Position numbers and translations under genes: made by a program. The notes under the pieces are model-generated. The model made no database searches. It worked only from the letters and a program-made list of their open reading frames with translations, and was not told the DNA's origin. From NCBI GenBank assembly GCA_021162685.1, contig JAGGYF010000028.1, positions 4,699 through 68,698 on the forward strand: a stretch of DNA of 64,000 bases. The letters are read 5' to 3'. This DNA is from Candidatus Iainarchaeum sp. (GTDB taxonomy: Archaea; B1Sed10-29; WALL01). Shown here piece after piece: positions 24,261 to 62,867 of the stretch. Every line of letters starts with the position of its first letter. Within the stretch, counting starts at the first letter, position 1.

Positions 24261-24470
24261 ATGCCAGAAGGAGTACCACGAACTGATGAAGAAAGAAGGG
24301 AAAGGCACAAGGAGAAATATGGAACAGAGGAAATCCCAGAAGAACGAAAAGGAAAGGCATCAAAAGCACTTGAGCAGAAGAAGAATCTGATTTTGGCTAT
24401 AAAGGTAGTGCTGGTGCTTGCAATTCTTTACTTTCTCTGGATAATTGTCAAGAGGGGTTGGGTTACTTGA
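24261..24470 (+). CDS. small membrane protein (single C-terminal TM)
   Basis: 69 aa with a charged N-terminus and one TM helix; sits inside the translationally coupled operon. Confidence 0.35.
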   Translation: MPEGVPRTDEERRERHKEKYGTEEIPEERKGKASKALEQKKNLILAIKVVLVLAILYFLWIIVKRGWVT

Positions 24471-25711: not shown

Positions 25712-26544
25712 GGATATGTATAACAGGAGGAAAAGGTGGGACAGGTAAGTCATTGATAGCAACATCGCTCGCCTATCATCTTGGAAAAAATCACAAGGTG
25801 CTTCTTGTTGACCTAGATGTTGATTGCCCAAATGACCATCTTATACTGTCAACAAAAAGGGAGGTGTTAAAGGAGGTAAAACAGACCATTCCTGTGCTTA
25901 ACGAAAACAGATGTAAAAAATGTGGGATATGCAGTAATATATGCAGGGAGAATGCCATAGTATTCATAAGAAAACGATTTCCTATCTTCCTTCTTGACCA
26001 GTGTAATGGATGTAAAGCATGTATGGTTGCATGCCCTGCAAATGCAATAGAGGAAGGAGAGCGCGCATATGGTGTAATCTATAAGGGAAAAAATGAACGG
26101 ATTGACATGCTAGTAGCAGAACTCGTGCCAGGACAAAAAGAGGGCTCTCCTTTGGTACATGAAGCAATAAAACTTGTGGGTGAGAACAAAAAATACGATT
26201 TTGTTATTATGGATACTGCAGCAGGAATGCATTGTACTGTCATATCTGCACTTAGAGAATGCGACTATATACTCGCTGTAACCGAACCCACACCATTGGG
26301 CGCACATGATCTCAACCTAATCCTTGATTTAATTGATGAATTAAACATTCCTTCTGGTGTTATATTAAACAAGAGGGGCATTGGAAACGAGAAAGAGGTA
26401 AGAGAAATCACAAAAAGGCATGGAAAGAAGATTGTTGCAGATGTCCCATACAGTAAAGAGGTCATGGAAGCGTATTCCAAAGGCATCCCAGTACCGATTC
26501 GGTTTGTTGAGAAGTTGGTCTCATTTGTGGAGGAGATGAAATGA
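25708..26544 (+). CDS. MinD/Mrp-family P-loop ATPase with inserted double 4Fe-4S ferredoxin domain (COG1149-like, CooC-related)
   Basis: Deviant Walker [10 protein letters not shown]; two Cys clusters [11 protein letters not shown] and [12 protein letters not shown]. Confidence 0.8.
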
Positions 26545-26927
26545 AGGGTATATATGTACTCATTATAGATATTTCAAAGGATGTAACAATCAGAGTTGGC
26601 TCGCTTGGTAATATGCTTTTCAAAAAAGGTACGTATGCATATGTTGGATCTGCCCAAAACAATGTTGAAAAGAGGATTAGAAGGCACATGAATAAGAAGA
26701 AGAAATTATTCTGGCACATTGATTATCTTCTGAAAGAACCAGGGATTAGAATAAGAAGGGTGTTATACAAAAAAGCACCAAAAACAGAGGAATGCAGAAC
26801 AGCATCTGTTATCAGCAAAAGAGGGGAGGCAATTCCACAATTCGGATGCTCTGATTGTAAATGCAATAGCCATCTTTTTAAGATCACAGAGATGCCACTA
26901 AGAGGGTTTAGAGAGGTGATTACCTGA
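26541..26927 (+). CDS. DUF123 family GIY-YIG-like domain protein
   Basis: KGIYVLII...[20 protein letters not shown] matches the archaeal DUF123 / GIY-YIG clan signature; C-terminal Cys pairs (CSDCKC). Confidence 0.6.
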
Positions 26928-26995
26928 ATCCTATTTACGGTCCTGTACCCTCATGGAGACTTGGAGTTTCACTTGGAGTAGACCCTGTATGCAAA

Positions 26996-27685
26996 ATGCC
27001 AAAAATTTGCTCATTTGATTGTATCTATTGTCAGTTGGGAAGAACGGTCGTAAAAACGACAAAAAGGGAGAAATTTGTTGAAGCGGAGATTGTTCGCAGA
27101 GAGTTGAAGAAGGCATTACGTATTGTAACACCAGACGTTATAACATTCTCTGGGGTATCAGAACCAACACTTGCATCAAATATTTCAGACATCGTGAATG
27201 TAATAAAAGAGGAAACCGATATCCCTGTTGCTATTCTAACAAATGCTTCCCTTATATACAAAAAGGAGGTTATGGACGACCTCATGCATTTTGATATTGT
27301 ATGTGCGAAACTTGATGCTCCAAACCAAAAGATATTTGAGCAGGTAAACAGACCATCATACGGAATAAAAATTGATGATATTATCAACGGAATAAAAGAA
27401 TTTAGAAAAGGATTCACGGGGAAACTCGCACTACAAATTATGTTAGTTAACGAAAATAAACCATACGTGAAAGAAATTGCTAACATAGCAAGGGATATAA
27501 AACCTGATGAGATTCAACTTGATACTCCTCTTAGACCCTGTCCTGTACCTGCCCTTCCAGAGGAGGAGATGTATGAGGCAAAGCAATGCTTTGATGGATT
27601 GAATGTGATAATGGTGTATGATAGGAAAAAACCAGAGGCAAAAGCAATAGATAAGTATGAGACACACCTGAGGAGACCCACATGA
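26996..27685 (+). CDS. short radical SAM enzyme (CxxxCxxC)
   Basis: CSFDCIYC at residues 5-12 of the ATG-initiated ORF; the in-frame upstream peptide YGPVPSWRLGVSLGVDPV (open from 26912, after a TAG) resembles the conserved N-terminus of this radical SAM subfamily, so the real start is probably a non-ATG codon near 26924-26933. Confidence 0.7.
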   Translation: MPKICSFDCIYCQLGRTVVKTTKREKFVEAEIVRRELKKALRIVTPDVITFSGVSEPTLASNISDIVNVIKEETDIPVAILTNASLIYKKEVMDDLMHFDIVCAKLDAPNQKIFEQVNRPSYGIKIDDIINGIKEFRKGFTGKLALQIMLVNENKPYVKEIANIARDIKPDEIQLDTPLRPCPVPALPEEEMYEAKQCFDGLNVIMVYDRKKPEAKAIDKYETHLRRPT

Positions 27686-28566
27686 TAAAAATCACAGTAG
27701 TTTCTGGAAAGGGAGGAGTTGGAAAGAGTAGCATAGCAGCATCCATGGCACTGGTCTTGTCAAAAAACAGAGATATTGTTGCTGTTGATTGTGATGTTGA
27801 TGCACCAAACCTTGGGCTGTTGCTTGGTGTAAAAAAGGAGGGCTTCTCATACAAAGAAGTAGGTACAAAAGAGAAAGCGTCTCTCATAGAAGATAGGTGT
27901 ATAAGATGTAGAAAATGCGTGGATATCTGTGTGTTTTCAGCTATCTCATGGGATAACCTACCGATATTTGATAAATATCTGTGTGAGGGATGCGGAGCGT
28001 GCCAACTTGTATGTCCTGTTGATGCAATTGAACTCATAAAAGTGCAGAATGCATTTATTGGATTTACTGACACACAGTATGGGTTCCCTGTTGTTGGTGG
28101 TCAGCTAAAACCAGGAGAATCTGGGTCTGGTGATGTAGTAACATTAGTAAAGGAAAAGGCAGAGGAGATAGCTAACAAAAGAGGGATTGAGACAATGATT
28201 ATAGACTCTGCAGCAGGTATTGGTTGTCCTGTGATTGCCTCAGTAACGGGTTCAGATTACGTTGTCGCTGTCACAGAACCAACACCCGCAGCATTTAGTG
28301 ACCTTAAGAGGGTTTTGGAAGTTGTTGAACATTTCAACATACCATATGGGATAATTATCAATACATGGAACACCAATCCAGCGTTTACAGAAAAGATTGA
28401 GAAATTCGCTTCTGAGAACGAAATAACGTTACTTGGAAAAATCCCATATGACAAAGCCTTTATTGATGCCTTGGTTCAGCTGATGCCTGTTGTTGCTTAC
28501 GATAAGAGGTTTAAAAAATTGTTTAAAAGTATTCTAGAAAAAACTCTGGCAGAGGTAGAGAAATGA
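27682..28566 (+). CDS. second MinD/Mrp-family P-loop ATPase with inserted 4Fe-4S ferredoxin domain
   Basis: Deviant Walker A SGKGGVGKS; CIRCRKCVDIC and CEGCGACQLVCP. Confidence 0.8.
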   Translation: MIKITVVSGKGGVGKSSIAASMALVLSKNRDIVAVDCDVDAPNLGLLLGVKKEGFSYKEVGTKEKASLIEDRCIRCRKCVDICVFSAISWDNLPIFDKYLCEGCGACQLVCPVDAIELIKVQNAFIGFTDTQYGFPVVGGQLKPGESGSGDVVTLVKEKAEEIANKRGIETMIIDSAAGIGCPVIASVTGSDYVVAVTEPTPAAFSDLKRVLEVVEHFNIPYGIIINTWNTNPAFTEKIEKFASENEITLLGKIPYDKAFIDALVQLMPVVAYDKRFKKLFKSILEKTLAEVEK

Positions 28567-29363
28567 AAAGGATTATTATGTTAATGGTGTTGACTATGCT
28601 TTTGGGTTGCATTCAGAAAACAGAAAAATTTGAGGGGGTTTCTGCTGCTTCTGGCAGCATAAGGATCATAACACTTTATGACAACAATCCTTACGATGAA
28701 CGTTTTGAAACGGGTTTTGGCTATTCTTCATTAATTCAAGCTGGAAACAATACTATACTCTTTGACACAGGAGGAGATAGCATCACACTTTTAAGAAACA
28801 TGGAAAAGGCTGGGGTAAAGCCTGAAACAATAAACATTATTGTGCTTTCCCACATACATGGTGATCATACTGGCGGTCTTCTTGGCTTACTTGAGCATAC
28901 GAAAGCCCCCATTGTATACCTTCCATCATCGTTCCCTCAAGATTTTAAAGAAAAGGTAAAGACCAATGCAAAACTTGTTGAAGTCAGTGCGCCATCTGAA
29001 ATAAGCAAGGGGATTTATTCAACAGGAGAGCTTGGAACATGGATAAAAGAACAGTCACTAATCATAAAAAGCAGTAAGGGAATTATAATAATTACAGGGT
29101 GCGCTCATCCAGGGATTGTTGAAATCGTTAAGAAAGCAAAGGAGATTACTGGCGAAAGGGTTTACTTGGTTCTGGGCGGGTTTCATCTCAATGGCGCAAG
29201 TGAGAATGAGATCAGGAACATTGTTAGGGAATTCAGGGAGCTTGGAGTGGAAAAAGTAGCACCATGCCATTGTACTGGAGAAACTGCCACAAAAATTTTT
29301 AAAGAAGAATATAAAGAGTATTTCATAGAAAACGGGGTTGGAAAAACAGTAGTGGTAGAATGA
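28563..29363 (+). CDS. metallo-beta-lactamase-fold lipoprotein
   Basis: Lipobox-like LLGC after a signal peptide; HxHxDH motif SHIHGDHTGG. Confidence 0.7.
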   Translation: MKRIIMLMVLTMLLGCIQKTEKFEGVSAASGSIRIITLYDNNPYDERFETGFGYSSLIQAGNNTILFDTGGDSITLLRNMEKAGVKPETINIIVLSHIHGDHTGGLLGLLEHTKAPIVYLPSSFPQDFKEKVKTNAKLVEVSAPSEISKGIYSTGELGTWIKEQSLIIKSSKGIIIITGCAHPGIVEIVKKAKEITGERVYLVLGGFHLNGASENEIRNIVREFRELGVEKVAPCHCTGETATKIFKEEYKEYFIENGVGKTVVVE

Positions 29364-30193
29364 TTTTGGAAGCTTTAACAGAGACTTTGAAACTCCTTTT
29401 CATAGTTTTTATTCTTATGGTTGTAATTGAATATCTAGTCCTCAGATTTGAGAAAAAGATCAGAAGATATATTACAGGGAATCCTTTCACCCAGTATCTT
29501 GTGGCATCTGCGCTTGGTGCTATTCCAGGATGTATTGACGCATTTTTTGTCGTCTCTTTGTATACTGCTGGAATAGTAGGCTTTGGGGCCCTGGCTGCTG
29601 TAATGATTTCAACAGCAGGAGACGAGGCATTCATCATGCTTGCTATGATACCTGACACAGCCCTAATAATATTTGGAATCTGCTTTGTATTAGGCATTGT
29701 TGGTGGGTTCCTCGCTGACATTTTTGTTAAGAAGTTTAACCTCAAACTCAGTAAGAGTTGTTGCGTTCCAGTGCATAAAAAAGAAAAGGTAATAACATTG
29801 AAGCATTTTGTCAAAGAACATGTTCTCGGCCACATAGTGAAAAAGCACATGCCAAAGCTGTTCCTCTGGCTTTTTTTCACACTCCTTGTTATAAACTGGG
29901 CGCTTGCTAACCTTGAATTGCAATCCCTTCTTCCCAAAAACTACCTCTGGCTACTTGTTTTCGCAGCAATAGTTGGGATAATACCTGAATCAGGCCCCCA
30001 TATAATGTTTGTTGTGCTTTTTTCCAAGGGATTGATTCCCTTTTCAGTGCTCCTTGTGAACACTATAAGCCAGGATGGCCATGGTTTGCTCCCCTTGCTC
30101 TCACACTCAATAAAAGACACTATTTACCTACAAGTATTTACAACATTATTTGCCCTAGGGGTTGGAATAATTTTGTTTCTCTTAGGTGTTTAG
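29360..30193 (+). CDS. polytopic membrane protein, putative metal/metalloid permease (two repeats with Cys/acidic motifs)
   Basis: About 8 TM; internally repeated motifs GCIDAFF and TAGDEAF reminiscent of permease families. Confidence 0.45.
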
Positions 30194-38933: not shown

Positions 38934-39701
38934 ATGCGAAGAGAACCTGTTGTTGCAGGCCAGTTCTATCCTTTTTCAGAGGACGCATTGAGAAAGATGA
39001 TTGAAGAGTATGTAAGCCAAGGTGAACCAGAAAAGGATGTAATTGCTGCTGTTTCTCCACATGCTGGATACATGTATTCTGGTCCTGTTGCTGGTTTCAC
39101 ATATGCGGCAATCTCAGAAATGAAACCAAAGGTTATAGCCATTATTGGCCCGGACCACACTGGCGCAGCGATGAACAGAACATATTGCTATCCAGATGGG
39201 GAATGGGAAACTCCACTGGGAGTGGTAGAAACTGTTGCGATGGATGGTATTGAAGTAAATGAGAACGCACATGCATTTGAACATTCTATTGAGGTGCAAG
39301 TACCATTCCTGCAGTATATATACAAACACAACTTCAAGATCTCTCCGATTATTATGGGCAACCAAAGCTTGGATGAAGCATTACTTGTTGGAGAGAGAAT
39401 AAGGGCAGACCTTGTTATAGCATCGTCTGATTTCTCACATTATGTTCCGTACGACACAGCAGTGAAAAACGACTTATACGCAATAGAAGCAGTTGAAAGA
39501 ATGGATGAAAAATTGTTTTACGAGCGCATATATGAAAAGAATGTTACAGCATGTGGATATGGTCCTATAACTGCTGCAATGCATTACGCAAAATTAAACA
39601 GGGCAAAACAGGGCAAACTTCTGAAGTATGCAACATCTGGTGATGTAACAGGGGACAAAGGAGCAGTTGTGGGATATGCATCCATAATATTCAAAAGATG
39701 A
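38934..39701 (+). CDS. MEMO1-family protein (AmmeMemoRadiSam system protein B-like)
   Basis: VVAGQFYP N-terminal motif and His/Asp ligands typical of Memo1; conserved S2-Memo-MVK neighbourhood in archaea. Confidence 0.8.
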   Translation: MRREPVVAGQFYPFSEDALRKMIEEYVSQGEPEKDVIAAVSPHAGYMYSGPVAGFTYAAISEMKPKVIAIIGPDHTGAAMNRTYCYPDGEWETPLGVVETVAMDGIEVNENAHAFEHSIEVQVPFLQYIYKHNFKISPIIMGNQSLDEALLVGERIRADLVIASSDFSHYVPYDTAVKNDLYAIEAVERMDEKLFYERIYEKNVTACGYGPITAAMHYAKLNRAKQGKLLKYATSGDVTGDKGAVVGYASIIFKR

Positions 39702-39751
39702 AAATGTGTTGATTGTCGTAATCATGTTTTTATATCAGCGAGGTTATAAAG

Positions 39752-40705
39752 ATGAAAATGCGAGATTTTATGGCCTCTGCGCCTGGAAAAGTGATATTGC
39801 TTGGAGAGCATGCTGTTGTCTATAATAGACCTGCTATAGCTGTGCCTGTAAATGCGGTGGAAGCAACATCAGAGGTTTCATATAGAGAGGGTGGCGTTTT
39901 TGTAAAGGCTCTGGACTTTGCTAAGGAGTATGATATTACAAAGAGGCCATTGAAAGAGGGAGATGATGGATTCGCATTGCAGGAGACAGTATACCACACA
40001 TATGAATACTTACAGAAAAGGCCAGAGGACGTAGAGATAAGGGTTACATCAACCATACCCGTTGCCGCAGGCATGGGTTCTGGTGCTGCTATTGCTGTTT
40101 CAATGATCAGAGCAATTGCTGGATATCTGAAGAAGGAACTATTACCAGAGGAGGTCAATTATCTTGCGTATAAAACAGAGATCATACACCATGGTACTCC
40201 ATCGGGTATTGACAATACAGTAATCACATACAATAAACCCGTATATTTCATAAGCGAACCTAGGAAGATGGAACGATTGGACATAGCAAAACCATTTATG
40301 CTTGTTATTGGTGATACGGGAATAAGATCAAATACAAAAGAAGTTGTTGCAATGGTGAGAGAGAACAGAAAAAAGAATTACAGCAAATATAAACAGATAT
40401 GGAATGAGATCGCAGATATAGTTAATGAAGCAAGGGATGCGATCATAAATGGAGACATAGAACATATCGGTCCACTAATGAACAGGAATCATGAACTACT
40501 AAAACAAATACATGTTTCCTGTGATGAGCTGGATAAACTTGTAGATGCTGCATTAGATGCTGGAGCAATAGGTGCAAAACTTTCTGGCGCTGGAAGAGGA
40601 GGAGATATGATTGCACTGGTGAATGAAGGCACAAAAGAAGATGTGGCAAATGCCCTGCGTAGAGCAGGGGCAAAAAATGTAATTATCACAGAGGTAAAAC
40701 CATGA
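39752..40705 (+). CDS. mvk: mevalonate kinase
   Basis: GHMP kinase motifs (PGKVILLGEHAVV, PVAAGMGSGAAIAVS). Confidence 0.85.
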   Translation: MKMRDFMASAPGKVILLGEHAVVYNRPAIAVPVNAVEATSEVSYREGGVFVKALDFAKEYDITKRPLKEGDDGFALQETVYHTYEYLQKRPEDVEIRVTSTIPVAAGMGSGAAIAVSMIRAIAGYLKKELLPEEVNYLAYKTEIIHHGTPSGIDNTVITYNKPVYFISEPRKMERLDIAKPFMLVIGDTGIRSNTKEVVAMVRENRKKNYSKYKQIWNEIADIVNEARDAIINGDIEHIGPLMNRNHELLKQIHVSCDELDKLVDAALDAGAIGAKLSGAGRGGDMIALVNEGTKEDVANALRRAGAKNVIITEVKP

Positions 40706-41256
40706 GGATTATTGTGGGAATTACAGGTGCATCTGGAAGCATTATAGGAAAGAGGATACTTGAAGTGCTAAAAGAAAAAGATATTGAAACACATTTGGTT
40801 ATAACAGATGCTGGAAAAACCACCATGAGTTATGAAATCGGTGATGTCAGAACAGTGGAGGAACTAGCAACAAAGACCTATGATATAAATGATATAGGCG
40901 CTGCTATTGCAAGTGGTTCATTTGAAACTCAGGGTATGATTGTTGCTCCATGCTCAATGAAAACAATGTCTGCAATAGCAAATGGCTTTGAAATAAACCT
41001 TCTGGTAAGGGCAGCAGATGCCTGCCTAAAACAGAGGAGGAGACTGATTCTCGTACCAAGGGAAACACCAATAATAAAAAGTTATGCAGAGAACATGGTA
41101 AAATGCCTTGAACTAGGAGCCATAGTTGTTCCGCCTATGGTACCATATTACGAAAAGCCTAAGACTGTTGACGAGATAACAGATTTCTTTGTGGGGAGAG
41201 TATTGGACTTCTTTGGGATTGAACATAGCTTATACAAAAAATGGGGTGGACTATGA
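40702..41256 (+). CDS. ubiX: UbiX-family flavin prenyltransferase
   Basis: Flavoprotein fold (IIVGITGASGSIIG..., VAPCSMKTMSAIANG). Confidence 0.85.
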   Translation: MRIIVGITGASGSIIGKRILEVLKEKDIETHLVITDAGKTTMSYEIGDVRTVEELATKTYDINDIGAAIASGSFETQGMIVAPCSMKTMSAIANGFEINLLVRAADACLKQRRRLILVPRETPIIKSYAENMVKCLELGAIVVPPMVPYYEKPKTVDEITDFFVGRVLDFFGIEHSLYKKWGGL

Positions 41257-41888
41257 AAGCCATTGTATTTGACATAGATGGTGTGCTTGTGGATACTGTA
41301 GGCAGCTTCTATACTGCATACAATGAAGCTATGAAAAGTGTTGGGAGTTACATTACAGAAAAGGAGTACCTTGATAGGGTTCACCTGCAAGGCTATAAAA
41401 TATTTGAAGAGATTCTGAAGATTAGAGGGATTGAAGCAGATGCAAAAGAGTTGAATCATTTGAAAAATAAGATTGTCAATAATATGCTTAAGAATGCAAA
41501 ACTGAAAAAAGGTGTTAATGAAATATTGAAAATGTTGAGTGAAAACAATATTAAGTATTGTATTGCAACAGCATCAGAACGTGAACAAACTGAAATCATA
41601 TTAAATGCTGTTGGCATTTCACATCTATTTCCCATAGTTGTGACTGCAAGTGATACTGAAGATGATGATGTAAAACCAAATATATATTACATTGCAGCAG
41701 ATAGACTTAAAGAACCAATAGAAAATTGCGTATTGGTTGAGGATTCACTGCATAATATCAAAGTGGGAAAATCTATAGGCATGGGCTGCATTGGTGTCAT
41801 TGGCAAATATTCAAAAGAAGGACTAAAAGAGGCTGCAGACTATGTTGTAGGACATGTTGGAGAGATAAAAACGGAGTGGTTAAGATGA
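41253..41888 (+). CDS. HAD-superfamily hydrolase (subfamily IA-like)
   Basis: Motif I VFDIDGVLVDT; ATGA overlap with the ubiX stop. Confidence 0.7.
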   Translation: MKAIVFDIDGVLVDTVGSFYTAYNEAMKSVGSYITEKEYLDRVHLQGYKIFEEILKIRGIEADAKELNHLKNKIVNNMLKNAKLKKGVNEILKMLSENNIKYCIATASEREQTEIILNAVGISHLFPIVVTASDTEDDDVKPNIYYIAADRLKEPIENCVLVEDSLHNIKVGKSIGMGCIGVIGKYSKEGLKEAADYVVGHVGEIKTEWLR

Positions 41889-43093
41889 ACCTAACAAAAG
41901 AAGAACAGAAAATGCTTGATGGAGAATATGGAGAGGGTGTACAAAAAGCAATGGAAATCATTGTTGCCCTTGGGAAGATTTATGGCGCTGAAAATTTGGT
42001 AGAAGTTGCATCAGTCCAAGTGGCAGGAGTCTCCTACAAGAATCTGGGAGATGCAGGCATTGAATTTTTAGAGGAGTGGGCATCAAAGGGGGCCAAGGTC
42101 AAAGTGCCAACAACATTGAACCCAGCAGGCATGGACCTTGATGACTGGAAAAGCATTGGATTTGCAGAGGAATTTGCTGATAAGCAATTAGAGGTTATTA
42201 AAGCATTTAGTAAAATGGGTATCCCACCGACATGCACATGCACGCCATATCTTGCTGGTAATATCCCAAAATTTGGCGACCATATCGCATGGGCTGAGAG
42301 TTCTGCTGTCTCATTTGCAAACTCTGTCATAGGTGCTAGAACAAATAGAGAAGGAGGACCATCTGCTATTGCAGCAGCAGTAACAGGAAGAACAGCAAAT
42401 TTTGGGTATCATCTTGATGAAAACAGGGTGGCAACATTTAAGATCATTGTTGAAGCAGACATGAAAGATACAAGTGATTTTGGTGCATTGGGGTACTGGA
42501 CAGGAAAACAATTGCGTAATAAAGTGCCTTTCTTTGTTGGTATAAAACACGCTACTACTGATTGCCTAAAATCGCTTGGCGCTGCCTCTGCTGCTAGTGG
42601 AGGTATTGCTCTGTACCATATTGAAAATATAACAGCTGAAGCAAGAGCAAAAGCAATGCTCAGCGATGACCATGAAACAGTCACATTTACAGATAAAGAG
42701 AAAAGAGATGTATTTGAAGCCATTGGCTTTTCTGAATCAGAAATAGACCTTGTTGTCTTTGGGTGCCCACATGCAAGTCTTGAAGAAGTGAGAACAATCG
42801 CAGAACGTGTAAAAGGAAAAAAACTCAAAGCAATGTTATGGATAACAACTTCAAAGCAAGTAAAATCTATGGCTGAGAGGATGGGTCTTGTAAAGGATAT
42901 AGAGGACGCTGGGGGTTATATCATAGCTGACATGTGCGCTGTTGTTGCTCCGGTAAAGTCGTTTGGGTTCAAGAACATAGCTGTAAATTCCGGAAAATAT
43001 GCGTGGTATCTTCCAAACCAAGGCTTTAATGTAAGGTTTGGCTCAACAGAAAAGTGCATAGAAGCAGCAATAACAGGAAGGTGGGAACCATGA
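41885..43093 (+). CDS. aconitase X large subunit (DUF521), putative phosphomevalonate dehydratase large subunit
   Basis: AcnX catalytic-domain family; paired with the DUF126 swivel subunit downstream. Confidence 0.8.
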   Translation: MNLTKEEQKMLDGEYGEGVQKAMEIIVALGKIYGAENLVEVASVQVAGVSYKNLGDAGIEFLEEWASKGAKVKVPTTLNPAGMDLDDWKSIGFAEEFADKQLEVIKAFSKMGIPPTCTCTPYLAGNIPKFGDHIAWAESSAVSFANSVIGARTNREGGPSAIAAAVTGRTANFGYHLDENRVATFKIIVEADMKDTSDFGALGYWTGKQLRNKVPFFVGIKHATTDCLKSLGAASAASGGIALYHIENITAEARAKAMLSDDHETVTFTDKEKRDVFEAIGFSESEIDLVVFGCPHASLEEVRTIAERVKGKKLKAMLWITTSKQVKSMAERMGLVKDIEDAGGYIIADMCAVVAPVKSFGFKNIAVNSGKYAWYLPNQGFNVRFGSTEKCIEAAITGRWEP

Positions 43094-43476
43094 TTGAATT
43101 GCATGGAAGAATTGTAAAGAGGGGTGCTGCAGAAGGAATCGCGCTCGTATCAAATGAACCTATTGGATTCTATGGTAATATTGACCCAGACACAGGAATC
43201 GTCATAGAAAAAGGACATCCTCTTGAAGGGCAATGTATTGCTGGAAAGGTTCTTGTTTTCCCGACAGGAAAAGGGAGTACTGTTGGTTCTTATACCATGT
43301 ACAGACTAAAGAAGAATGGAAAAGCTCCTATAGCAATAATAAATGAGGAGAGTGAACCCATAATCGCCGTTGGTGCTATAATATCAGATATACCACTAGT
43401 TGACAAGGTAGATATCTCAAAAATAAGGACAGGAGACAAGGTCAAAATTGACGGGGAGGTCGTTCGCATTGAGTGA
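43090..43476 (+). CDS. aconitase X swivel-domain small subunit (DUF126), putative phosphomevalonate dehydratase small subunit
   Basis: MIELHGRIVKRGAAEG...GKVLVFPTGKGSTVGSY matches the DUF126 pattern; ATGA overlap with the large subunit. Confidence 0.75.
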   Translation: MIELHGRIVKRGAAEGIALVSNEPIGFYGNIDPDTGIVIEKGHPLEGQCIAGKVLVFPTGKGSTVGSYTMYRLKKNGKAPIAIINEESEPIIAVGAIISDIPLVDKVDISKIRTGDKVKIDGEVVRIE

Positions 43477-43477
43477 A

Positions 43478-45055
43478 TTGGTGCTTTTGAAACTTGGTGG
43501 TTCCCTCATAACGGATAAAACAAAACCAGAGACAGCAAGGGTTGATGTAATAAGAAGGATTGCACAAGAGATAAAGAGAGCATTAACCAAGAGGGGAGAT
43601 ATAAAGTTAATTATAGGACATGGTGGTGGTTCATTTCCTCACTATCCTGCAAAGAGGTATAGAGTGAATGAGGGGATAATAAACAAGGATTCATGGAGAG
43701 GGTTTGCTGAGACAAGAGCAGCAGCATCAAAGCTGAATCAGATTGTTACAGAGATATTTCTTGAGGAAGGGCTGGATGTAGTATCACTACAACCGAGTTC
43801 ATCTGTTCTCTGTGAAAATGGGGTTATAGTGCATATGGACCTGAGGCAGATAAAATTCCTCATAGATAGACATCAGATCCCGGTAACCTATGGTGATGCT
43901 GTTTTGGACAGAGAAAAAGGATGTACAATTGTGTCAACAGAGGCACTGTTTGACTATATTGCACGAAAGCTTTTTCCAGATAGGATAATACTAGCAGGAG
44001 AGGTTGAGGGCGTCTATGATTCAGACCCGCATAAAAATCCAAATGCAAAACTTATTCCGGAGATAACAAACAAGAACTTTGAAAAAATCAAAAAGATGCT
44101 CACTGGTTCACATGGTTATGATGTAACAGGCGGCATGGCAACAAAAATAGAGAGCATGTATAACCTGTTACATATTCTCCCATCAATGAAGGTGCAGATT
44201 ATATCCGGAAAAATTCCAGGTGTTATTGAGAAAGCAATTGTTGGAAGAGAACACATCGGAACAATTATGAGATACTTGGGAAAGAGCAAGATACCTAAGA
44301 TAATTGTTGTTGAGGTTAATGGCATTATTGTAAAAAATGGCTTTAAGCCGTGGAAAGAAGCATTAACTATGATGGTAGAAAGAGGAGATATACCGCGAGA
44401 TGCATGGGAGAGAGAAATAAAGCCAATTGTTGATGGATATCTATCAAAGAAGATAGATAGAGATGAAGCAGTGAAACTTGTTATGATGGGCGTTGCAAAG
44501 GCACTGAAAGGAAAACCATACAAAGAGATAGAAGGAGTGATAAACAAAACAATGGAGAAGGTTAGGCAGAACTATGATCCATTTGTGATAGATATGCTGA
44601 AATATGCAAAGAATGAAAGAGGTTATAAGCTGGCAACAATCTCAGCAAATTTTTATGACATTGCAAAACATATTGCCAAGGATATTGGCGCAGAATATGT
44701 TTATGATACTACACTTGGCGTCAAAAACGGAAAACTTACAGGAACATTAAAGGGAGAATTCATGACATCCGTTGGAAAGTTGTGGGCAGTGAGAGACCTC
44801 ATGGAGAGAGCAAAATGTGTGAAGGAACGTATGATATACATAGGTAATAGGATATCAGATTGGAAAGCAATGAACGAATGCGGCATTAGCATACTATACA
44901 AACCAGATTTGAGTGTAAAGGCAGAAAAAACACTTGAAGAAAAGGAGTGGATTAAGGAGATACTAAAAGTCATGAGGACAAATGAGTTGAGCAACCTGAT
45001 TGTGATATCAAACAAATCAGACACAAAAAAACTGAAGGAGATCATAGATAGGTGA
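43478..45055 (+). CDS. ipk: isopentenyl phosphate kinase fused to a C-terminal degenerate HAD-IB (phosphoserine-phosphatase-like) domain
   Basis: N-terminal amino-acid-kinase fold LLKLGGSLITDK...GHGGGSF; the C-terminal 270 aa resemble HAD-IB, but motif I (DxDxT) is VEVNG and motif IV is GNRISDW; the TTG/GTG start just after the upstream stop is inferred. Confidence 0.7.
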   Translation: MVLLKLGGSLITDKTKPETARVDVIRRIAQEIKRALTKRGDIKLIIGHGGGSFPHYPAKRYRVNEGIINKDSWRGFAETRAAASKLNQIVTEIFLEEGLDVVSLQPSSSVLCENGVIVHMDLRQIKFLIDRHQIPVTYGDAVLDREKGCTIVSTEALFDYIARKLFPDRIILAGEVEGVYDSDPHKNPNAKLIPEITNKNFEKIKKMLTGSHGYDVTGGMATKIESMYNLLHILPSMKVQIISGKIPGVIEKAIVGREHIGTIMRYLGKSKIPKIIVVEVNGIIVKNGFKPWKEALTMMVERGDIPRDAWEREIKPIVDGYLSKKIDRDEAVKLVMMGVAKALKGKPYKEIEGVINKTMEKVRQNYDPFVIDMLKYAKNERGYKLATISANFYDIAKHIAKDIGAEYVYDTTLGVKNGKLTGTLKGEFMTSVGKLWAVRDLMERAKCVKERMIYIGNRISDWKAMNECGISILYKPDLSVKAEKTLEEKEWIKEILKVMRTNELSNLIVISNKSDTKKLKEIIDR

Positions 45056-45059
45056 AAGG

Positions 45060-45578
45060 ATGAAAGAAACAGAAGTTGAGATTGAAATAAAACATCTCGC
45101 ACCAGTACGGAAAAGGTTGGAATCAATAGGTGTACTTGTGGAGAAAGCATTATTTAGGGATGTGTATTTTGATAAAAAAATGTTTTTGAAAGGAGCAAGA
45201 GTAAGATTGAGAGAGAGAAAGGTCAGATATCCACATAAGAAATATGAAGCAAAATTAACACTCAAAAAACCAAGAATAAAAGGTGGTATCCAGAGGAGTG
45301 AAGAACTTGAGGTTAGATTAGATGACTTTAAGACAATGTATAAGATACTAGAAAGGTTATACGGTCCACCCTACTTTGATGAAGTACTATCTGTTGAGAG
45401 ATACAAGGTGGGCAGTTCAGTCGTGGACTTGAGAGCAGTAAAAGGTCTGTTTAAATATGTTGAGATTGAGGGGAATACTAAACAGATAAAGCGATTAGAG
45501 AAGAGACTTGGAATTGTAGGAAAGAGAATAACGGAGGGAGCATTCAAAAGAATATGTAAAATGCGGGGATTACTATGA
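45060..45578 (+). CDS. CYTH-domain (triphosphate tunnel metalloenzyme) protein
   Basis: N-terminal EVEIEIK (ExExK) motif and alternating basic and acidic beta-strands. Confidence 0.7.
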   Translation: MKETEVEIEIKHLAPVRKRLESIGVLVEKALFRDVYFDKKMFLKGARVRLRERKVRYPHKKYEAKLTLKKPRIKGGIQRSEELEVRLDDFKTMYKILERLYGPPYFDEVLSVERYKVGSSVVDLRAVKGLFKYVEIEGNTKQIKRLEKRLGIVGKRITEGAFKRICKMRGLL

Positions 45579-46627
45579 TAAAAAAACGAAAACTTGACCA
45601 TATTGAGATATGCACAGAGAAGGATGTGGAGGTTGGGAGCAATTGGTTTGAATATGTTCAGTTAATACATAATGCTGTTCCTGAGATAAATCTTGACGAT
45701 GTAGAGACAAAAACCACATTTCTCGGAAAAGAATTGAAAGCACCACTCATGGTCGCTGCTATAACTGGAGGAGTAGAAGAAGCCAAAGAGATAAACAAAT
45801 CACTGGCAAAGGTATGTGAGGAGTTCGGTATTGCATTCGGCCTTGGCTCACAAAGGGCAATGATAGAACATCCAGAACTATGGGATACATACTATGTAAG
45901 GGATGTTGCACCTAATATTCCTATTTTTGGAAATATTGGACTAGCAAATCTTGGTGATATAGGTATCAATGAGATTATAAAATCTATCAAAAGGGTTGAT
46001 GCAGATTTTCTGTGCGTGCATCTCAATGCTGCCCAGGAAGCAGCACAACCAGAAGGGAACACGCAATTTGCAGAGAAGATAAAGGAGTTGGCAAAACTAT
46101 CAAAGAAAATCCCCATAATTGCGAAAGAGGTTGGCAATGGCATATCAAGAGAAACAGCGATATTGCTGAAGGAGGCTGGAGTAAAGGCCATAGATGTCGG
46201 AGGATTTGGGGGAACAAGTTGGATCAAGGTTGAGGAGTACAGGAGTAAGAATAGTAGTGGATTTGTCAATTGGGGAATACCCACTGCTGCAGCCGTTATG
46301 GAATGTAGTGCTGTTGGTCTACCAATTATTGCAACAGGAGGCATAAGAAGAGGATTAGAATGTGCAAAAGCCATTGCGCTTGGTGCAAGCATATGTGGTA
46401 TGGCGTTGCCCTGTCTAAGATGGCATTACAAAGGAAAACTTAGGGAAAACATGAGCAATGTAATAAAAGAATTGAAAACCGCGATGTTCTTAACAGGAAG
46501 TAGAAGTATAGGTGAGCTAAAACAAACGAATGCTGTTATATCAGGCAAACTAAAGGAATGGTGTGAGGCGAGGTCTATTCCTATAAAACATTATGCAATG
46601 CGGAGAAGTCATTTAAAGATGTTCTAA
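45575..46627 (+). CDS. fni: isopentenyl-diphosphate delta-isomerase, type 2 (FMN-dependent)
   Basis: TIM-barrel IDI-2 motifs (LMVAAITGG, HLNAAQE, GGFGGTSW, ATGGIRRG). Confidence 0.85.
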   Translation: MIKKRKLDHIEICTEKDVEVGSNWFEYVQLIHNAVPEINLDDVETKTTFLGKELKAPLMVAAITGGVEEAKEINKSLAKVCEEFGIAFGLGSQRAMIEHPELWDTYYVRDVAPNIPIFGNIGLANLGDIGINEIIKSIKRVDADFLCVHLNAAQEAAQPEGNTQFAEKIKELAKLSKKIPIIAKEVGNGISRETAILLKEAGVKAIDVGGFGGTSWIKVEEYRSKNSSGFVNWGIPTAAAVMECSAVGLPIIATGGIRRGLECAKAIALGASICGMALPCLRWHYKGKLRENMSNVIKELKTAMFLTGSRSIGELKQTNAVISGKLKEWCEARSIPIKHYAMRRSHLKMF

Positions 46628-55739: not shown

Positions 55740-56698
55740 TCTGTTTAGGTATAGAAAGCACTGCGCACACATTTGGAGTAGGAATAACAGATGGGAGAAA
55801 ATGTCTAGCAAATAGAAAGCTTATGTACAGGGCAAAAGGGGGCATACATCCGAGAGAAGCAGCGCAGTATATGACTGACAACGCACACCTTGTTCTAAAA
55901 GAGGCAATAGAAGAAGCAGACATATCTATGGATGACATAGGATTATTTGCATTTGCACAGGGACCTGGACTTGGACCATGTTTAAGGGTTGGTGCTGCAA
56001 TTGCGCGGGTTCTATCACTCAGATACAAAAAACCCATTGTTGGAGTAAATCATTGTATTGCACATGTTGAAGTTGGTAAGTGGGATGGTAAACTAAAGGA
56101 CCCTTTGGTTGTGTATGTATCAGGCGCAAATACCCAGATCCTTGGATTAGCAAAGAAGAGGTACAGAATATATGGGGAGACACTGGACATTGGTCTTGGG
56201 AATGCCATAGACGTGTTCGCTAGGGAGTTCGGGGTGCCAATGCCAGGAGGCCCATGGTTAGAGAAAACAGCAAAAAAAGGAAAGAGATACATAGAACTGC
56301 CATATACTGTTAAGGGGATGGACCTCGCCTTTTCTGGGTTACTTACTGCAGCAAAAAAGCTCGCTAGGAAGAAGAATAGGTATGACCTATGCTATTCATT
56401 CCAGGAAACACTTTTTGGTATGCTTGTTGAAGTGTCTGAAAGGGCATTAGCACACACAAAAAAAAGAGAGGTGCTTTTGGTTGGGGGAGTTGCACAGAAC
56501 AAACGCCTGAACAATATGTTTAATGAGATGTGCAGATTCCACAATGCAAAGTTTTTTGTTTCAAAACCGGAATATAACGCAGACAATGGGTTTATGATTG
56601 CACTTACAGGATTAAAAATGTTCAAAGCAGGCGTCAGACAAAAAGACTTACATATAAACCAGAAGTGGAGAACTGATGAAGTAGAAGTTATTTGGTAA
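55736..56698 (+). CDS. kae1: tRNA N6-adenosine threonylcarbamoyltransferase Kae1 (KEOPS catalytic subunit)
   Basis: [16 protein letters not shown]..., HCIAH metal-binding motifs; start set at the internal ATG overlapping the rps27ae stop; not fused to Bud32. Confidence 0.9.
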
Positions 56699-57794
56699 GA
56701 ACTATCATACTCTCTCTTGTAATACCTATCTTTTTTGTTCGTTGTTTAGTGCACCACCTTTTGTTCAAAACAATTATTCTATCAACTGCAAACCCTACGC
56801 TCTCAGCAATCTCTGATAGGATTATATCACTCTCAACAACACCATCTGGGAAGCAACCATTTCCAACAACAATTGCTACCTTCGCCCCTTGCTTACAGAC
56901 CCTATAAAGCTCATGTATAACCATATCCATGTCCTTGAAATATGCTCTTGCTATTGGAGGAAGGTCCTTATTCACAAGAAAATCCGCAGTAGTATCCAAT
57001 CCTATTGCGCTTCTTATGGCTGTTGTTTTCATATGTTTGAAGAAAAGCTCGGTTTCTATTGAGTAAACCCTTGTATACTCAATCTTATTTAGATAAGGAG
57101 GAGATGTTATGACAGCATCTACACTCTCATCTTCCATATCTAACATACGTGCATCTCCAATCCTCGCCTCTGCTTTTGCTTCTGTTGTTTCAAATGTCTT
57201 CACATCATGTAGCATCTTCATGAGCGTCCTCCGCAGCATCTTCCTAAGTGGAGGAACGGGTTTTTTCTTTATCCTCAGGACAGAACCGTCCTTTATCACA
57301 TATGAGCACTTCATCGCAGCATTCATCAATCCTAACAACAAGAAATCCCTTATCTTCTCGTCTTCAAATCTCATTATTGCATCCCTGAACACAAAGATAT
57401 CATCAAGCACATATTTTGAAAATGCTTTTTTTACAAACGATGAAACATCACACTCCTTCTTAACAAATTTTATTTTCATCAACCTCTTTATTGCCTGAAA
57501 TAGTTCATCTGGATCATATTCCCTTAATTTGACATTTGAAACAAAAACTGCTATTGGTGACACATCAAAACCTAAGGAATCTATGCCTCTTTGTTTACAT
57601 GCAACTAGTGTTGTACCAACGCCACAAAAAGGATCCAAAACCAAACCATTAGCACCAAACATATCAAGAACATTGAAAACTAATTGCTTTGAGAAACCCT
57701 CTTTATAGTAAAACCAGTCATATACAGGTTCATGTTTATTAGGAATGAATGTAGCAAATGGGCCCCATTCCAATTTCTCAACAATCTTATACAT
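56688..57794 (-). CDS. orphan DNA methyltransferase (N6-adenine/N4-cytosine, alpha-class motif order)
   Basis: Motif I DPFCGVGTT near the N-terminus and motif IV SPPY about 170 aa downstream; only minus-strand gene in this stretch; no adjacent nuclease-like ORF. Confidence 0.75.
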   Translation of the reverse strand: MYKIVEKLEWGPFATFIPNKHEPVYDWFYYKEGFSKQLVFNVLDMFGANGLVLDPFCGVGTTLVACKQRGIDSLGFDVSPIAVFVSNVKLREYDPDELFQAIKRLMKIKFVKKECDVSSFVKKAFSKYVLDDIFVFRDAIMRFEDEKIRDFLLLGLMNAAMKCSYVIKDGSVLRIKKKPVPPLRKMLRRTLMKMLHDVKTFETTEAKAEARIGDARMLDMEDESVDAVITSPPYLNKIEYTRVYSIETELFFKHMKTTAIRSAIGLDTTADFLVNKDLPPIARAYFKDMDMVIHELYRVCKQGAKVAIVVGNGCFPDGVVESDIILSEIAESVGFAVDRIIVLNKRWCTKQRTKKIGITRESMIVLTK

Positions 57795-62192: not shown

Positions 62193-62867
62193 ATGTATGG
62201 GGCAGAGCTACTACTTCCCCTCATAGTAGGGATTGTAGCATATGGAACTGGTAGTTTAGACCTCCTAAGCTCTATAACTGGCATTGTTATGGGTTATACA
62301 ATCATCTTTGCAAGGGGGTTTGACTGGTTTCTTGTTCTTCTCTTCTTCTTTGTATTGAGTATTGCTGCAACCAGATATAAGTACAAAAGAAAGGAGAGAT
62401 ATCACGTATCCCAGAAAAAAAGAACAGTTGAAAACGTCTTAGGTAATGGTTTGGTTGCAGTTGCTTGTGCAGTCTATGGCAACATATATGGATTCTTTGG
62501 TGCAATATCAACAGCCACATCAGATACTGTTTCATCAGAACTTGGAGTATTATCAAAAGATGACCCTATTGATATTCTCACAGGAAGAACAGTAAGAAGA
62601 GGGGCAAATGGTGGCATATCAGTACTTGGGAACGTTGCTATGTTTGCCAGCTCATTTATACTCTCTTTGTCTGCTATTGTATTGTTCAATGATTTCCTTT
62701 TATTCTGGATAGCATTATGGTCTGGCATCTTTGGATGCATCATTGACTCAATATTTGGCTCTTGGCTTGAGAATAAGGGCGTCATAGGGAACAGTCTTGT
62801 CAATTTCATTGCAACAGTTTTTGGCGCAGGAATGGCTATTTGGCTGAGTACAATTATATCCATGTAA
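62193..62867 (+). CDS. DUF92 (TMEM19-like) integral membrane protein
   Basis: About 6 TM with the conserved basic loop KRKERYHVSQKKRTVENVLGNG. Confidence 0.65.
   Translation: MYGAELLLPLIVGIVAYGTGSLDLLSSITGIVMGYTIIFARGFDWFLVLLFFFVLSIAATRYKYKRKERYHVSQKKRTVENVLGNGLVAVACAVYGNIYGFFGAISTATSDTVSSELGVLSKDDPIDILTGRTVRRGANGGISVLGNVAMFASSFILSLSAIVLFNDFLLFWIALWSGIFGCIIDSIFGSWLENKGVIGNSLVNFIATVFGAGMAIWLSTIISM

What the first reader, a model, noticed from the sequence alone, without database searches (positions are those of the whole stretch)
38934..46627. Archaeal-type mevalonate cluster with AcnX (phosphomevalonate dehydratase) and UbiX, interleaved with HAD and CYTH genes; no UbiD-like decarboxylase in the window
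The order is Memo-like, MVK, UbiX, HAD-IA hydrolase, AcnX large subunit, AcnX small subunit, IPK(-HAD), CYTH, IDI2. AcnX large and small subunits plus UbiX point to the trans-anhydromevalonate-phosphate route of the archaeal pathway. The UbiD-family decarboxylase that uses the UbiX product is not here. Two phosphohydrolase-type genes (HAD, CYTH) are embedded and translationally coupled (ATGA overlaps at 41253 and 45575). CYTH enzymes act on triphosphates or polyphosphates; a role on isoprenoid di- or triphosphates, or in pathway regulation, is conceivable but untested.
Basis: partly seen in the sequence, partly recalled or inferred. Interest (0 to 1): 0.5.

Follow-up and report, generated by a model that had tools for sequence, protein, structure and literature searches.

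The report
Archaeal mevalonate operon with extra phosphatases
This is a tightly packed operon for the known archaeal route to isoprenoid building blocks in a small DPANN archaeon; it lacks the usual decarboxylase gene and carries a divergent triphosphatase-like (CYTH) gene that also sits inside the same pathway's gene clusters in at least three other lineages, which suggests an undescribed helper step.

Summary
Window 38934-46627 (+ strand) encodes Memo, MVK, UbiX, HAD-IA, AcnX large and small subunits, an IPK–HAD-IB fusion, a CYTH-fold protein and IDI2. Every junction from MVK to IDI2 is -4, -8 or +4 nt. No UbiD trace exists in any frame of the 64 kb window. The source is a 'Candidatus Diapherotrites' (DPANN) MAG.

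The core is the known archaeal trans-anhydromevalonate-phosphate pathway. In 17 of 17 related loci that carry UbiX, UbiD lies in the same cluster. Here a lineage-specific HAD-IA fills the slot where the closest syntenic relative has UbiD plus an LpdD-like gene. I could not determine whether UbiD lies elsewhere in the genome.

The CYTH gene is not a chance insertion. It belongs to a rare, divergent subfamily whose members sit inside mevalonate clusters in four different arrangements. It keeps the metal and phosphate motifs of TTM hydrolases, loses the Lys of ExExK and gains an invariant Arg.

The HAD-IB domain fused to IPK recurs in about 11 protein clusters, and its catalytic motifs are eroded in this lineage.

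My favoured, unproven reading is that these are accessory phosphohydrolases acting on prenyl (di)phosphates, for example to supply DMAP to UbiX. This is a new variant of a known system, of moderate interest.

The parts
38934..39701 (+). Memo-like / AmmeMemoRadiSam system protein B. It is the conserved neighbour between ribosomal protein S2 and MVK in many archaea.
   Evidence: PF01875 223 bits and TIGR04336 273 bits. The S2-Memo-MVK order is also seen in L011, L026, L028 and L081.
39752..40705 (+). Mevalonate kinase (MVK).
   Evidence: TIGR00549 268 bits, above the cut-off of 163. GHMP N- and C-terminal domains are present.
40702..41256 (+). UbiX flavin prenyltransferase (prFMN synthase). It overlaps MVK by ATGA.
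   Evidence: TIGR00421 237 bits, above the cut-off of 109. Junction of -4 nt.
41253..41888 (+). Stand-alone HAD-IA hydrolase with intact DxD (FDIDGV) and EDS motifs. It occupies the slot where relatives carry UbiD (+LpdD). ATGA overlaps lie at both ends.
   Evidence: PF13419 100 bits. The nearest solved relatives are the TM_1254 sugar phosphatase and beta-PGM. Junctions were read. No orthologue was found in related clusters. GC is 0.346, against 0.39-0.42 for most other genes in the cluster.
41885..43093 (+). AcnX large subunit (phosphomevalonate dehydratase, large).
   Evidence: PF04412 534 bits. Three Cys (C122, C297, C354) are invariant in the alignment with relatives.
43090..43476 (+). AcnX small subunit (swivel domain, DUF126).
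   Evidence: PF01989 123 bits; NF003046 183 bits, above the cut-off of 163.
43469..45055 (+). Isopentenyl phosphate kinase fused to a C-terminal HAD-IB (phosphoserine-phosphatase-like) domain. The HAD domain starts near 44280. Its motif I is E-V-N instead of D-x-D, and motif IV is G-N instead of G-D.
   Evidence: NF040647 220 bits and PF12710 47 bits. The fusion recurs in about 11 protein clusters at 44-58% identity. The nearest solved relative of the domain is M. jannaschii phosphoserine phosphatase at E=3e-9.
45060..45578 (+). Divergent CYTH / triphosphate-tunnel-metalloenzyme protein (172 aa; GenBank MCD6522907.1, annotated 'hypothetical'). It starts 4 nt after IPK-HAD and overlaps IDI2 by ATGA.
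   Evidence: Profile hit to SaTTM 7ns8 at E=5e-27. AF2 model pLDDT 96.6, Foldseek TM 0.83 to SaTTM. Only 13 cluster representatives with E<1e-10 among 1.84 billion. Homologues lie inside mevalonate clusters in L011, L094/95 and L096.
45575..46627 (+). Type 2 (FMN-dependent) isopentenyl-diphosphate isomerase (IDI2).
   Evidence: TIGR02151 383 bits, above the cut-off of 281.

Best explanation
The region is one translationally coupled operon for the lower 'archaeal' mevalonate pathway in a Diapherotrites (DPANN) archaeon.

Pathway steps:
- MVK makes mevalonate 5-phosphate.
- The AcnX large and small subunits dehydrate it to trans-anhydromevalonate 5-phosphate.
- A UbiD-type decarboxylase, loaded with the prenylated FMN made by UbiX, should convert this to isopentenyl phosphate.
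- IPK makes IPP, and IDI2 makes DMAPP.

The decarboxylase gene is not in this operon, and a lineage-specific HAD-IA sits in its usual slot. I infer that the decarboxylase is encoded elsewhere in the genome, because an intact UbiX has no other known use.

Three phosphohydrolase-type modules are added:
- HAD-IA, which is specific to this lineage.
- A HAD-IB domain fused to IPK, which is conserved as a fusion but has eroded catalytic residues here.
- A divergent CYTH/TTM, which is conserved inside mevalonate clusters of several lineages.

I propose that the CYTH protein is an active two-metal phosphoanhydride hydrolase whose substrate is a pathway metabolite rather than free triphosphate. The most likely reaction removes the terminal phosphate of DMAPP or IPP. 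That would supply the DMAP that UbiX needs and balance the IPK reaction.

Shown: gene identities, operon structure, the CYTH fold and motifs, and conserved linkage of CYTH to the pathway. Inferred: UbiD elsewhere, and CYTH catalytic activity. Speculative: its substrate.
For: Family scores above the curated cut-offs for MVK, UbiX, AcnX small subunit, IPK and IDI2, and 534 bits for AcnX large.

Junctions of -4, -8 or +4 nt from MVK to IDI2.

CYTH fold: TM 0.83 to SaTTM, pLDDT 96.6. It retains DxY, RxR, TxK and ExE (E135, E137), which the SaTTM paper ties to hydrolase-type TTMs.

CYTH homologues at 38-40% identity lie in four distinct arrangements within mevalonate clusters:
- IPK-HAD|CYTH|IDI2 in the window.
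- IPK|CYTH|IDI2 in L011/L012.
- AcnXS|CYTH|HAD-IB|IPK|CYTH-like|Nudix in L094/L095.
- UbiD|CYTH|AcnXL in L096.

CYTH divergence between the window and L011 (40%) matches that of the flanking pathway genes (40-59%), which fits co-inheritance.

Other phosphohydrolases recur at or near the clusters of IPK-HAD relatives. These are an HD gene inside the cluster in L005/L006, and Nudix genes (one as a HAD-Nudix fusion) nearby in L004, L005 and L007. IPK-Nudix fusions occur in Anaerolineales.

About one third of the related AcnX loci with enough upstream sequence (23 of 68) lack an adjacent UbiD, so a separate UbiD location is common.
Against: No enzymology exists for any member of this CYTH subfamily.

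The Lys of the hallmark ExExK motif aligns to Glu, so the activity could be altered or lost.

Three of the closest homologues (P0124, P0127, P0129) are not visibly next to mevalonate genes, although their contigs are short or cut.

None of 80 AcnX loci from named genomes has a CYTH gene. If the function is needed at all, it is needed only in a narrow group.

UbiD could not be located for this MAG. The window is the only one of 18 UbiX-bearing loci without UbiD in the cluster.

My own recollection is that IPK is reversible and could itself make DMAP from DMAPP and ADP, which would remove the need for a hydrolase.
Confidence: 0.55

Rival explanations
1. The CYTH protein is an ordinary housekeeping inorganic tri/poly/pyrophosphatase, like SaTTM. 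Its place in the operon reflects drift within a conserved housekeeping gene neighbourhood and not a pathway role.
For: The closest solved relative, SaTTM, prefers inorganic triphosphate. In L004 a Pfam-recognisable CYTH lies between S6e and eIF2-gamma, only a few kb from IPK-HAD. P0124 lies after a diphthine-synthase-like gene.
Against: Four different arrangements all keep the subfamily directly between mevalonate genes, including UbiD|CYTH|AcnXL. The subfamily has its own signature: Lys to Glu in ExExK, an invariant Arg at the SaTTM A54 position, and a C-terminal EGA helix.
Confidence: 0.22
2. The hydrolases (CYTH, HAD-IB, HAD-IA, and Nudix or HD in relatives) form a relief valve or futile-cycle regulator for IP/IPP pools. 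They would dephosphorylate IPP/DMAPP to IP/DMAP and on to the alcohols, as Nudix hydrolases and IPK do in plants. They would not be cofactor-supply enzymes.
For: CYTH is adjacent to IPK, or separated from it only by HAD-IB, in three of four arrangements. A canonical stand-alone HAD-IB and a Nudix gene flank IPK in L094. IPK-Nudix fusions exist in Anaerolineales. IPP accumulation inhibits E. coli growth (PMC12547664).
Against: The HAD-IB domain fused to IPK in this lineage has lost the Asp nucleophile and a motif IV Asp. In L096 the CYTH gene sits with UbiD and AcnX, and no IPK gene is visible on that 3.7-kb contig.
Confidence: 0.18
3. HAD-IA, and possibly CYTH, are functionally unrelated passengers. 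The operon is an otherwise ordinary archaeal mevalonate cluster.
For: HAD-IA has no orthologue in any related cluster. Its best family matches are generic sugar-phosphatase and beta-PGM families. HAD-IA and CYTH have the lowest GC in the cluster, 0.346 and 0.358.
Against: Both genes are joined to their neighbours by 4-nt overlaps or a 4-nt gap. CYTH is conserved in this context at 38-40% identity.
Confidence: 0.12
4. The lineage has truly lost the UbiD decarboxylase. The pathway is then either broken or decaying, or it bypasses UbiD by an unknown reaction that involves the added hydrolases.
For: No UbiD is present in the 64 kb window. All 17 other UbiX-bearing loci keep UbiD in the cluster. 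HAD-IA sits exactly in the UbiD/LpdD slot of L011.
Against: All other pathway genes are intact and tightly coupled. UbiX has no known role without a UbiD-family partner. 23 of 68 related AcnX loci lack an adjacent UbiD. I know of no hydrolase chemistry that decarboxylates an alpha,beta-unsaturated acid.
Confidence: 0.05

Closest known systems
Archaeal (trans-anhydromevalonate 5-phosphate) mevalonate pathway, as described for Aeropyrum pernix and Methanosarcina mazei: MVK, PMDh (AcnX type II), AMPD (UbiD family), prFMN synthase (UbiX), IPK
   Same: MVK, both AcnX subunits, UbiX, IPK and IDI2 are all present and score as family members. [quoted passage not shown]
   Different: The AMPD/UbiD gene is missing from the operon and from the whole window. 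Extra HAD-IA, HAD-IB (fused to IPK) and CYTH modules are embedded.
SaTTM (Saci_0718), the Sulfolobus acidocaldarius triphosphate tunnel metalloenzyme (PDB 7ns8 and related entries)
   Same: Same fold (TM 0.83). DxY, RxR, TxK and ExE motifs are conserved. The HF motif typical of class IV adenylate cyclases is absent.
   Different: Only about 21% identity. The Lys of ExExK is Glu. The SaTTM A54 position is an invariant Arg. The C-terminal helix is distinct. The genomic context is a mevalonate operon. The substrate is unknown.
Plant and bacterial Nudix hydrolases that convert IPP/DMAPP to IP/DMAP, working against IPK
   Same: A phosphohydrolase is genetically tied to IPK. IPK-Nudix fusions and nearby Nudix genes occur in related loci.
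   Different: Different folds here (CYTH, HAD). No activity data exist. This is a resemblance of logic only.
Phosphoserine-phosphatase-like HAD-IB enzymes (for example M. jannaschii PSP, PDB 1f5s)
   Same: The C-terminal domain of the IPK fusion matches this family (PF12710, and 1f5s at E=3e-9). The motif III Lys and the second Asp of motif IV are invariant across the nine fusion proteins aligned.
   Different: The nucleophile Asp is Glu, Asp+2 is Asn, and the first Asp of motif IV is Asn. The domain is fused to a kinase.

Membership tests
Archaeal mevalonate pathway (tAHMP route) | Mevalonate kinase | tested here: met
   TIGR00549 268 bits, above the cut-off of 163.
Archaeal mevalonate pathway (tAHMP route) | Heterodimeric AcnX type II dehydratase (large and small subunits, with Cys ligands for the Fe-S cluster) | tested here: met
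   PF04412 534 bits; PF01989 123 bits; NF003046 183 bits, above 163. C122, C297 and C354 are invariant among five relatives.
Archaeal mevalonate pathway (tAHMP route) | UbiD-family tAHMP decarboxylase (AMPD) | tested here: not met
   Absent from the window in all six frames. The rest of the genome could not be searched.
Archaeal mevalonate pathway (tAHMP route) | UbiX prFMN synthase | tested here: met
   TIGR00421 237 bits, above the cut-off of 109.
Archaeal mevalonate pathway (tAHMP route) | Isopentenyl phosphate kinase | tested here: met
   NF040647 220 bits, above the cut-off of 120. In the GHGGGSF motif, G57, H58, G59, G61, S62 and F63 are invariant across the nine fusion proteins aligned.
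Archaeal mevalonate pathway (tAHMP route) | Enzymatic conversion of mevalonate 5-phosphate to IP through tAHMP | not testable with these tools
   Needs biochemistry.
CYTH / triphosphate tunnel metalloenzymes | Eight-stranded beta-barrel tunnel fold | tested here: met
   AF2 model pLDDT 96.6; Foldseek TM 0.83, rmsd 2.2-2.3 A to SaTTM.
CYTH / triphosphate tunnel metalloenzymes | N-terminal ExExK hallmark motif | tested here: inconclusive
   The strand reads E3-x-E5-x-E7-x-E9-x-K11. The HMMER alignment and the secondary-structure register place E7 at the Lys position. The five closest homologues also have Glu there, and no Lys on this strand is conserved. A shifted register would give E7-x-E9-x-K11 in the window protein only.
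CYTH / triphosphate tunnel metalloenzymes | Basic RxR strand, TxK, and acidic ExE on beta-8 (second Glu means hydrolase, Ala means adenylate cyclase) | tested here: met
   R49, R51, T67, K69 and E135 are invariant in the six-sequence subfamily alignment, and the window reads E135-I-E137. Motif meaning is taken from PMC8233210.
CYTH / triphosphate tunnel metalloenzymes | Curated family score thresholds (Pfam PF01928; TIGR00318 cyaB) | tested here: not met
   No Pfam hit at E<=0.01. TIGR00318 scores 42.1 bits, below the cut-off of 57.95.
Class IV adenylate cyclase (CyaB) | HF motif four residues before ExExK, a small residue replacing the first Arg of RxR, and Ala replacing the second Glu of ExE | tested here: not met
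   The protein starts at the acidic strand, so there is no room for HF. R49 and E137 are present.
HAD phosphatases (stand-alone HAD-IA, 41253-41888) | Motif I DxD, motif II Thr/Ser, motif III Lys, motif IV acidic pair | tested here: met
   FDIDGV, IATAS, VKPN and VEDS were read from the translation. PF13419 100 bits.
HAD phosphatases (HAD-IB domain fused to IPK) | Motif I DxD nucleophile and general acid; motif IV GDxxxD | tested here: not met
   The window has VVEVNGI and IGNRISD. Relatives have [DE]-x-[ND]-G. The stand-alone homologue in L094 has canonical DVDGT and GDTEED.

The most novel reading that the evidence does not exclude
The divergent CYTH subfamily (ExExE in place of ExExK, plus an extra tunnel Arg) would be the first triphosphate-tunnel enzyme dedicated to isoprenoid metabolism. 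It would be a prenyl-diphosphate phosphohydrolase that makes DMAP (or IP) from DMAPP (or IPP). That would fill the unassigned step that feeds UbiX in archaea using the tAHMP pathway. HAD-IB, HAD-IA, Nudix and HD proteins would serve as interchangeable analogues in sister lineages.
Probability: 0.22. Interest if true: 0.7.

Novelty: new variant of a known kind. Interest (0 to 1): 0.5.

Why it matters
The archaeal mevalonate pathway depends on prenylated FMN, and UbiX needs dimethylallyl monophosphate to make it. The pathway papers I could read here do not say where archaea get that substrate.

A phosphohydrolase held inside the pathway operon across several lineages is a concrete, cloneable candidate for that step, or for control of the IP/IPP pool. 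That also matters to groups who install this ATP-saving pathway in production strains.

The finding would also give a divergent, unannotated CYTH subfamily a biological context. It further shows an IPK-HAD fusion, and a cluster in which a HAD-IA gene occupies the slot where the closest syntenic relative carries UbiD and an LpdD-like gene.

Tried and rejected
1. Finding UbiD elsewhere in the MAG. A protein search seeded with the UbiD of the syntenic relative was saturated by 64-70% identical archaeal hits. None of the named hits among the best 120 carried this MAG's locus-tag prefix J7K68. Cluster look-ups of ten unnamed NCBI/ENA hits gave no useful names. Look-ups of proteins at the window edges did not retrieve the remaining ~9 kb of the 73-kb contig. 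The question is unresolved.

2. Scanning genome contigs with CYTH alignments. I used the AcnX large subunit as the anchor instead.

3. Scanning metagenome contigs with the single CYTH and HAD-IA proteins. Both found no relatives.

4. Testing whether phosphohydrolases are generally embedded in AcnX clusters. Among 80 named genomes, my own HMMs found no CYTH and only one non-adjacent HAD-IA-like pair. The intercalated unknown ORFs that I scanned were unrelated genes such as a transposase, a peroxiredoxin and a nucleotidyltransferase. I rejected this as a general feature.

5. Orthology between the window HAD-IA and the HAD-Nudix fusion next to AcnX in L007. Rejected: BLASTP gives only E=0.001 over 44 residues.

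6. The split AcnX large-subunit gene in L001 as evidence of pathway decay. Rejected: the same alternative assemblies also break eIF2-gamma and aIF5B, which points to assembly artefacts.

7. Literature. No paper in the searchable library links CYTH to mevalonate or describes an IPK-HAD fusion, and 'isopentenyl triphosphate' returned nothing.

Full report
**Observation.** On the + strand between 38934 and 46627 the window carries nine consecutive ORFs. Profile searches identify them as follows:
- Memo-like protein: PF01875, 223 bits.
- Mevalonate kinase: TIGR00549, 268 bits against a cut-off of 163.
- UbiX: TIGR00421, 237 against 109.
- A HAD-IA hydrolase: PF13419, 100 bits.
- AcnX large subunit: PF04412, 534 bits.
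- AcnX small subunit: PF01989, 123 bits; NF003046, 183 against 163.
- Isopentenyl phosphate kinase with a C-terminal HAD-IB domain: NF040647, 220 against 120; PF12710, 47 bits.
- A 172-aa protein with no Pfam hit and a sub-threshold cyaB match: TIGR00318, 42 against 58.
- Type 2 IPP isomerase: TIGR02151, 383 against 281.

The ATGA overlaps at 41253 and 45575 are in the sequence. With the most plausible start codons, every junction from MVK to IDI2 is -4, -8 or +4 nt. This is a single, translationally coupled operon directly downstream of ribosomal protein S2.

No UbiD is present. The ORFs scanned with Pfam are SecY, a PKD protein, NrdD, translation factors and other housekeeping genes. tblastn and a six-frame HMM search with a UbiD profile find nothing at E<1.

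**Source.** The CYTH and IPK-HAD proteins are identical to GenBank entries from a MAG named 'Candidatus Diapherotrites archaeon', locus tag J7K68_04100. The same proteins occur in ENA assemblies of the SPET22-1 metagenomes. The archaeal mevalonate pathway is already reported for the majority of DPANN archaea (PMC11052028). The core of the finding is therefore known biology.

**Is the 172-aa protein a CYTH enzyme?** Yes, but a divergent one.
- A phmmer search of 1.84 billion cluster representatives found only 125 hits at E<=1e-3 and 13 at E<=1e-10.
- A profile of the protein and its homologues hits the solved archaeal TTM SaTTM at E=5e-27, and also PH1819, PH1012 and the class IV cyclases.
- An AlphaFold2 model has pLDDT 96.6 and superposes on substrate-bound SaTTM with TM 0.83.

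I used the motif scheme of the SaTTM paper (PMC8233210) to read the active site.
- The protein keeps DxY (D34, Y36), the RxR strand (R49, R51), TxK (K69) and the ExE pair (E135, E137).
- It has no room for the HF motif of adenylate cyclases.
- It therefore looks like a two-metal hydrolase and not a cyclase.
- Two things set the subfamily apart. The Lys of the hallmark ExExK aligns to Glu in the window protein and its five closest homologues. The small residue at the SaTTM A54 position is an invariant Arg, R47.
- The register of the repetitive ExExExExK strand is not certain, so I score that feature as inconclusive.

**Is the CYTH gene linked to the pathway?** I looked up the genomic context of the closest homologues.
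- P0123 (40% identity) lies in another Diapherotrites MAG, GCA_016939415.1. The order there is S2-Memo-x-MVK-UbiX-UbiD-LpdD-AcnXL-AcnXS-IPK-CYTH-IDI2. This is the window's order, except that UbiD plus an LpdD-like gene replace HAD-IA and IPK is unfused.
- P0125 lies in AcnXL-AcnXS-CYTH-HAD-IB-IPK-(second CYTH-like)-Nudix.
- P0126 lies in UbiD-CYTH-AcnXL-AcnXS.
- P0124, P0127 and P0129 are on short or truncated contigs with no visible mevalonate genes.

Four different arrangements therefore keep this rare subfamily directly between mevalonate genes. Between the window and L011, CYTH identity (40%) is in line with that of the flanking genes (40-59%). That fits long co-residence and not a recent insertion.

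The association is narrow. None of 80 AcnX loci from named genomes (archaea and Chloroflexota) contains a CYTH gene within 10 kb.

**HAD modules.** The IPK-HAD-IB fusion recurs in about 11 protein clusters at 44-58% identity. In the fusion proteins, motif I is [DE]-x-[ND]-G. The window and three relatives have Glu at the nucleophile position, and the same four have lost the first Asp of motif IV. The stand-alone HAD-IB next to IPK in L094 has canonical DVDGT and GDxxxD motifs. The fused domain in this lineage is therefore probably a weakened or non-catalytic phosphatase domain.

The stand-alone HAD-IA has intact motifs, but its matches are generic (sugar phosphatases and beta-PGM). It has no orthologue in any related cluster. 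It also has the lowest GC in the operon. I treat it as lineage-specific.

Relatives with the IPK-HAD fusion carry other phosphohydrolases at or near their clusters:
- an HD gene between UbiD and AcnXL in L005/L006;
- Nudix genes nearby in L004 and L005;
- a HAD-Nudix fusion adjacent to the AcnX small-subunit gene in L007.

IPK-Nudix fusions occur in Anaerolineales.

**The missing decarboxylase.** UbiD lies within 2 kb upstream of AcnXL in 45 of the 68 related genome loci that have enough upstream sequence. The other 23 lack it there. A separate location is therefore common.

However, all 17 other loci that contain UbiX also contain UbiD. The window is the exception, with HAD-IA neatly overlapping both neighbours in that slot. 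An intact UbiX has no known use without a UbiD-family partner, so I infer that UbiD lies elsewhere in the genome. I could not verify this.

**Mechanism.**
- Shown: the operon encodes MVK, the AcnX dehydratase, UbiX, IPK and IDI2, together with a hydrolase-type CYTH protein that is conserved in this context.
- Inferred: the pathway runs through trans-anhydromevalonate phosphate with a UbiD encoded elsewhere, and the CYTH protein is catalytically active on a pathway-related phosphoanhydride.
- Speculative: the substrate is DMAPP or IPP, giving DMAP for UbiX or balancing the IPK reaction.

The papers I could search do not state how archaea obtain DMAP. No paper links CYTH to mevalonate metabolism.

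The rival readings are a housekeeping tri- or pyrophosphatase, an IP/IPP relief valve, unrelated passenger genes, and a truly UbiD-less pathway. Each is listed with the experiment that would decide it.

**Verdict.** The core is a known pathway. Three features are new:
- the conserved, divergent CYTH subfamily inside mevalonate clusters;
- the IPK-HAD fusion with eroded catalytic motifs;
- a HAD-IA gene in the slot where the closest syntenic relative carries UbiD.

I rate it a new variant of a known kind, of moderate interest, and directly testable by simple enzymology.

Noticed in passing
L001:2715-3840, L001:13129-14087, L002:6177-7933: Other assemblies of the same population (ENA SPET22-1 scaffolds) have frame-broken AcnX large subunit, eIF2-gamma and aIF5B genes. 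Breaks in these core translation genes point to assembly or consensus errors and not to pathway decay.
   Followed up: partly
Proteins P0015, P0016, P0027, P0030 and P0051, P0063, P0067, P0072: IPK also occurs fused to the AcnX swivel (small-subunit) domain, and to a Nudix domain; the one named IPK-Nudix example is from an Anaerolineales MAG. IPK thus appears in several different domain fusions.
   Followed up: no
window 41885-43093 and 43469-44280; loci L014-L022: The window's AcnX large subunit is about as similar to Anaerolineae/Chloroflexota homologues (55-57%) as to archaeal ones. The named hits among the best unfused IPK matches are Chloroflexota. In a rough NJ tree the window's AcnX large subunit sits next to the bacterial clade. 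This hints at inter-domain transfer involving DPANN-like lineages.
   Followed up: partly
L011:7214-7534 and e.g. L034, L038, L043, L054, L060, L063, L065, L070: A small LpdD-chaperone-like gene (PF21758) sits between UbiD and AcnXL in the Diapherotrites relative L011. My own HMM built from it finds the same arrangement in many Thermoplasmata-type loci. It is absent from the window.
   Followed up: partly
L004:15430-16014: In a 740-kb DPANN contig with an IPK-HAD fusion, a Pfam-recognisable CYTH gene lies between ribosomal protein S6e and eIF2-gamma. In the window those two genes are adjacent with no CYTH between them.
   Followed up: partly
L094:2237-2779 and L094:2792-3340: A second, weaker CYTH-like ORF (E=7e-6 to my profile) and a Nudix gene follow IPK in the locus that also has CYTH and a stand-alone HAD-IB. 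That makes four phosphohydrolase-type genes around one IPK.
   Followed up: no
window 62193-62867: A DUF92 integral membrane protein (PF01940, 165 bits). From memory, this family includes plant VTE6 phytyl-phosphate kinase, so the gene may be another isoprenoid-phosphate enzyme.
   Followed up: no
window 24458-30193: A run of metal and Fe-S related genes: a cation-efflux protein fused to a dinitrogenase FeMo-cofactor-binding domain, two CbiA/MinD-type ATPases with ferredoxin inserts, a radical SAM protein, a metallo-beta-lactamase-fold protein and an ArsP_2-type exporter.
   Followed up: no
window 56688-57794 (- strand): A DNA methyltransferase (N6_N4_Mtase) is one of the few minus-strand genes in the window. 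It lies in the only 2-kb bin where GC skew turns negative.
   Followed up: no
window 18114-20888: A 924-aa protein with CARDB and PKD repeats, probably a surface protein.
   Followed up: no
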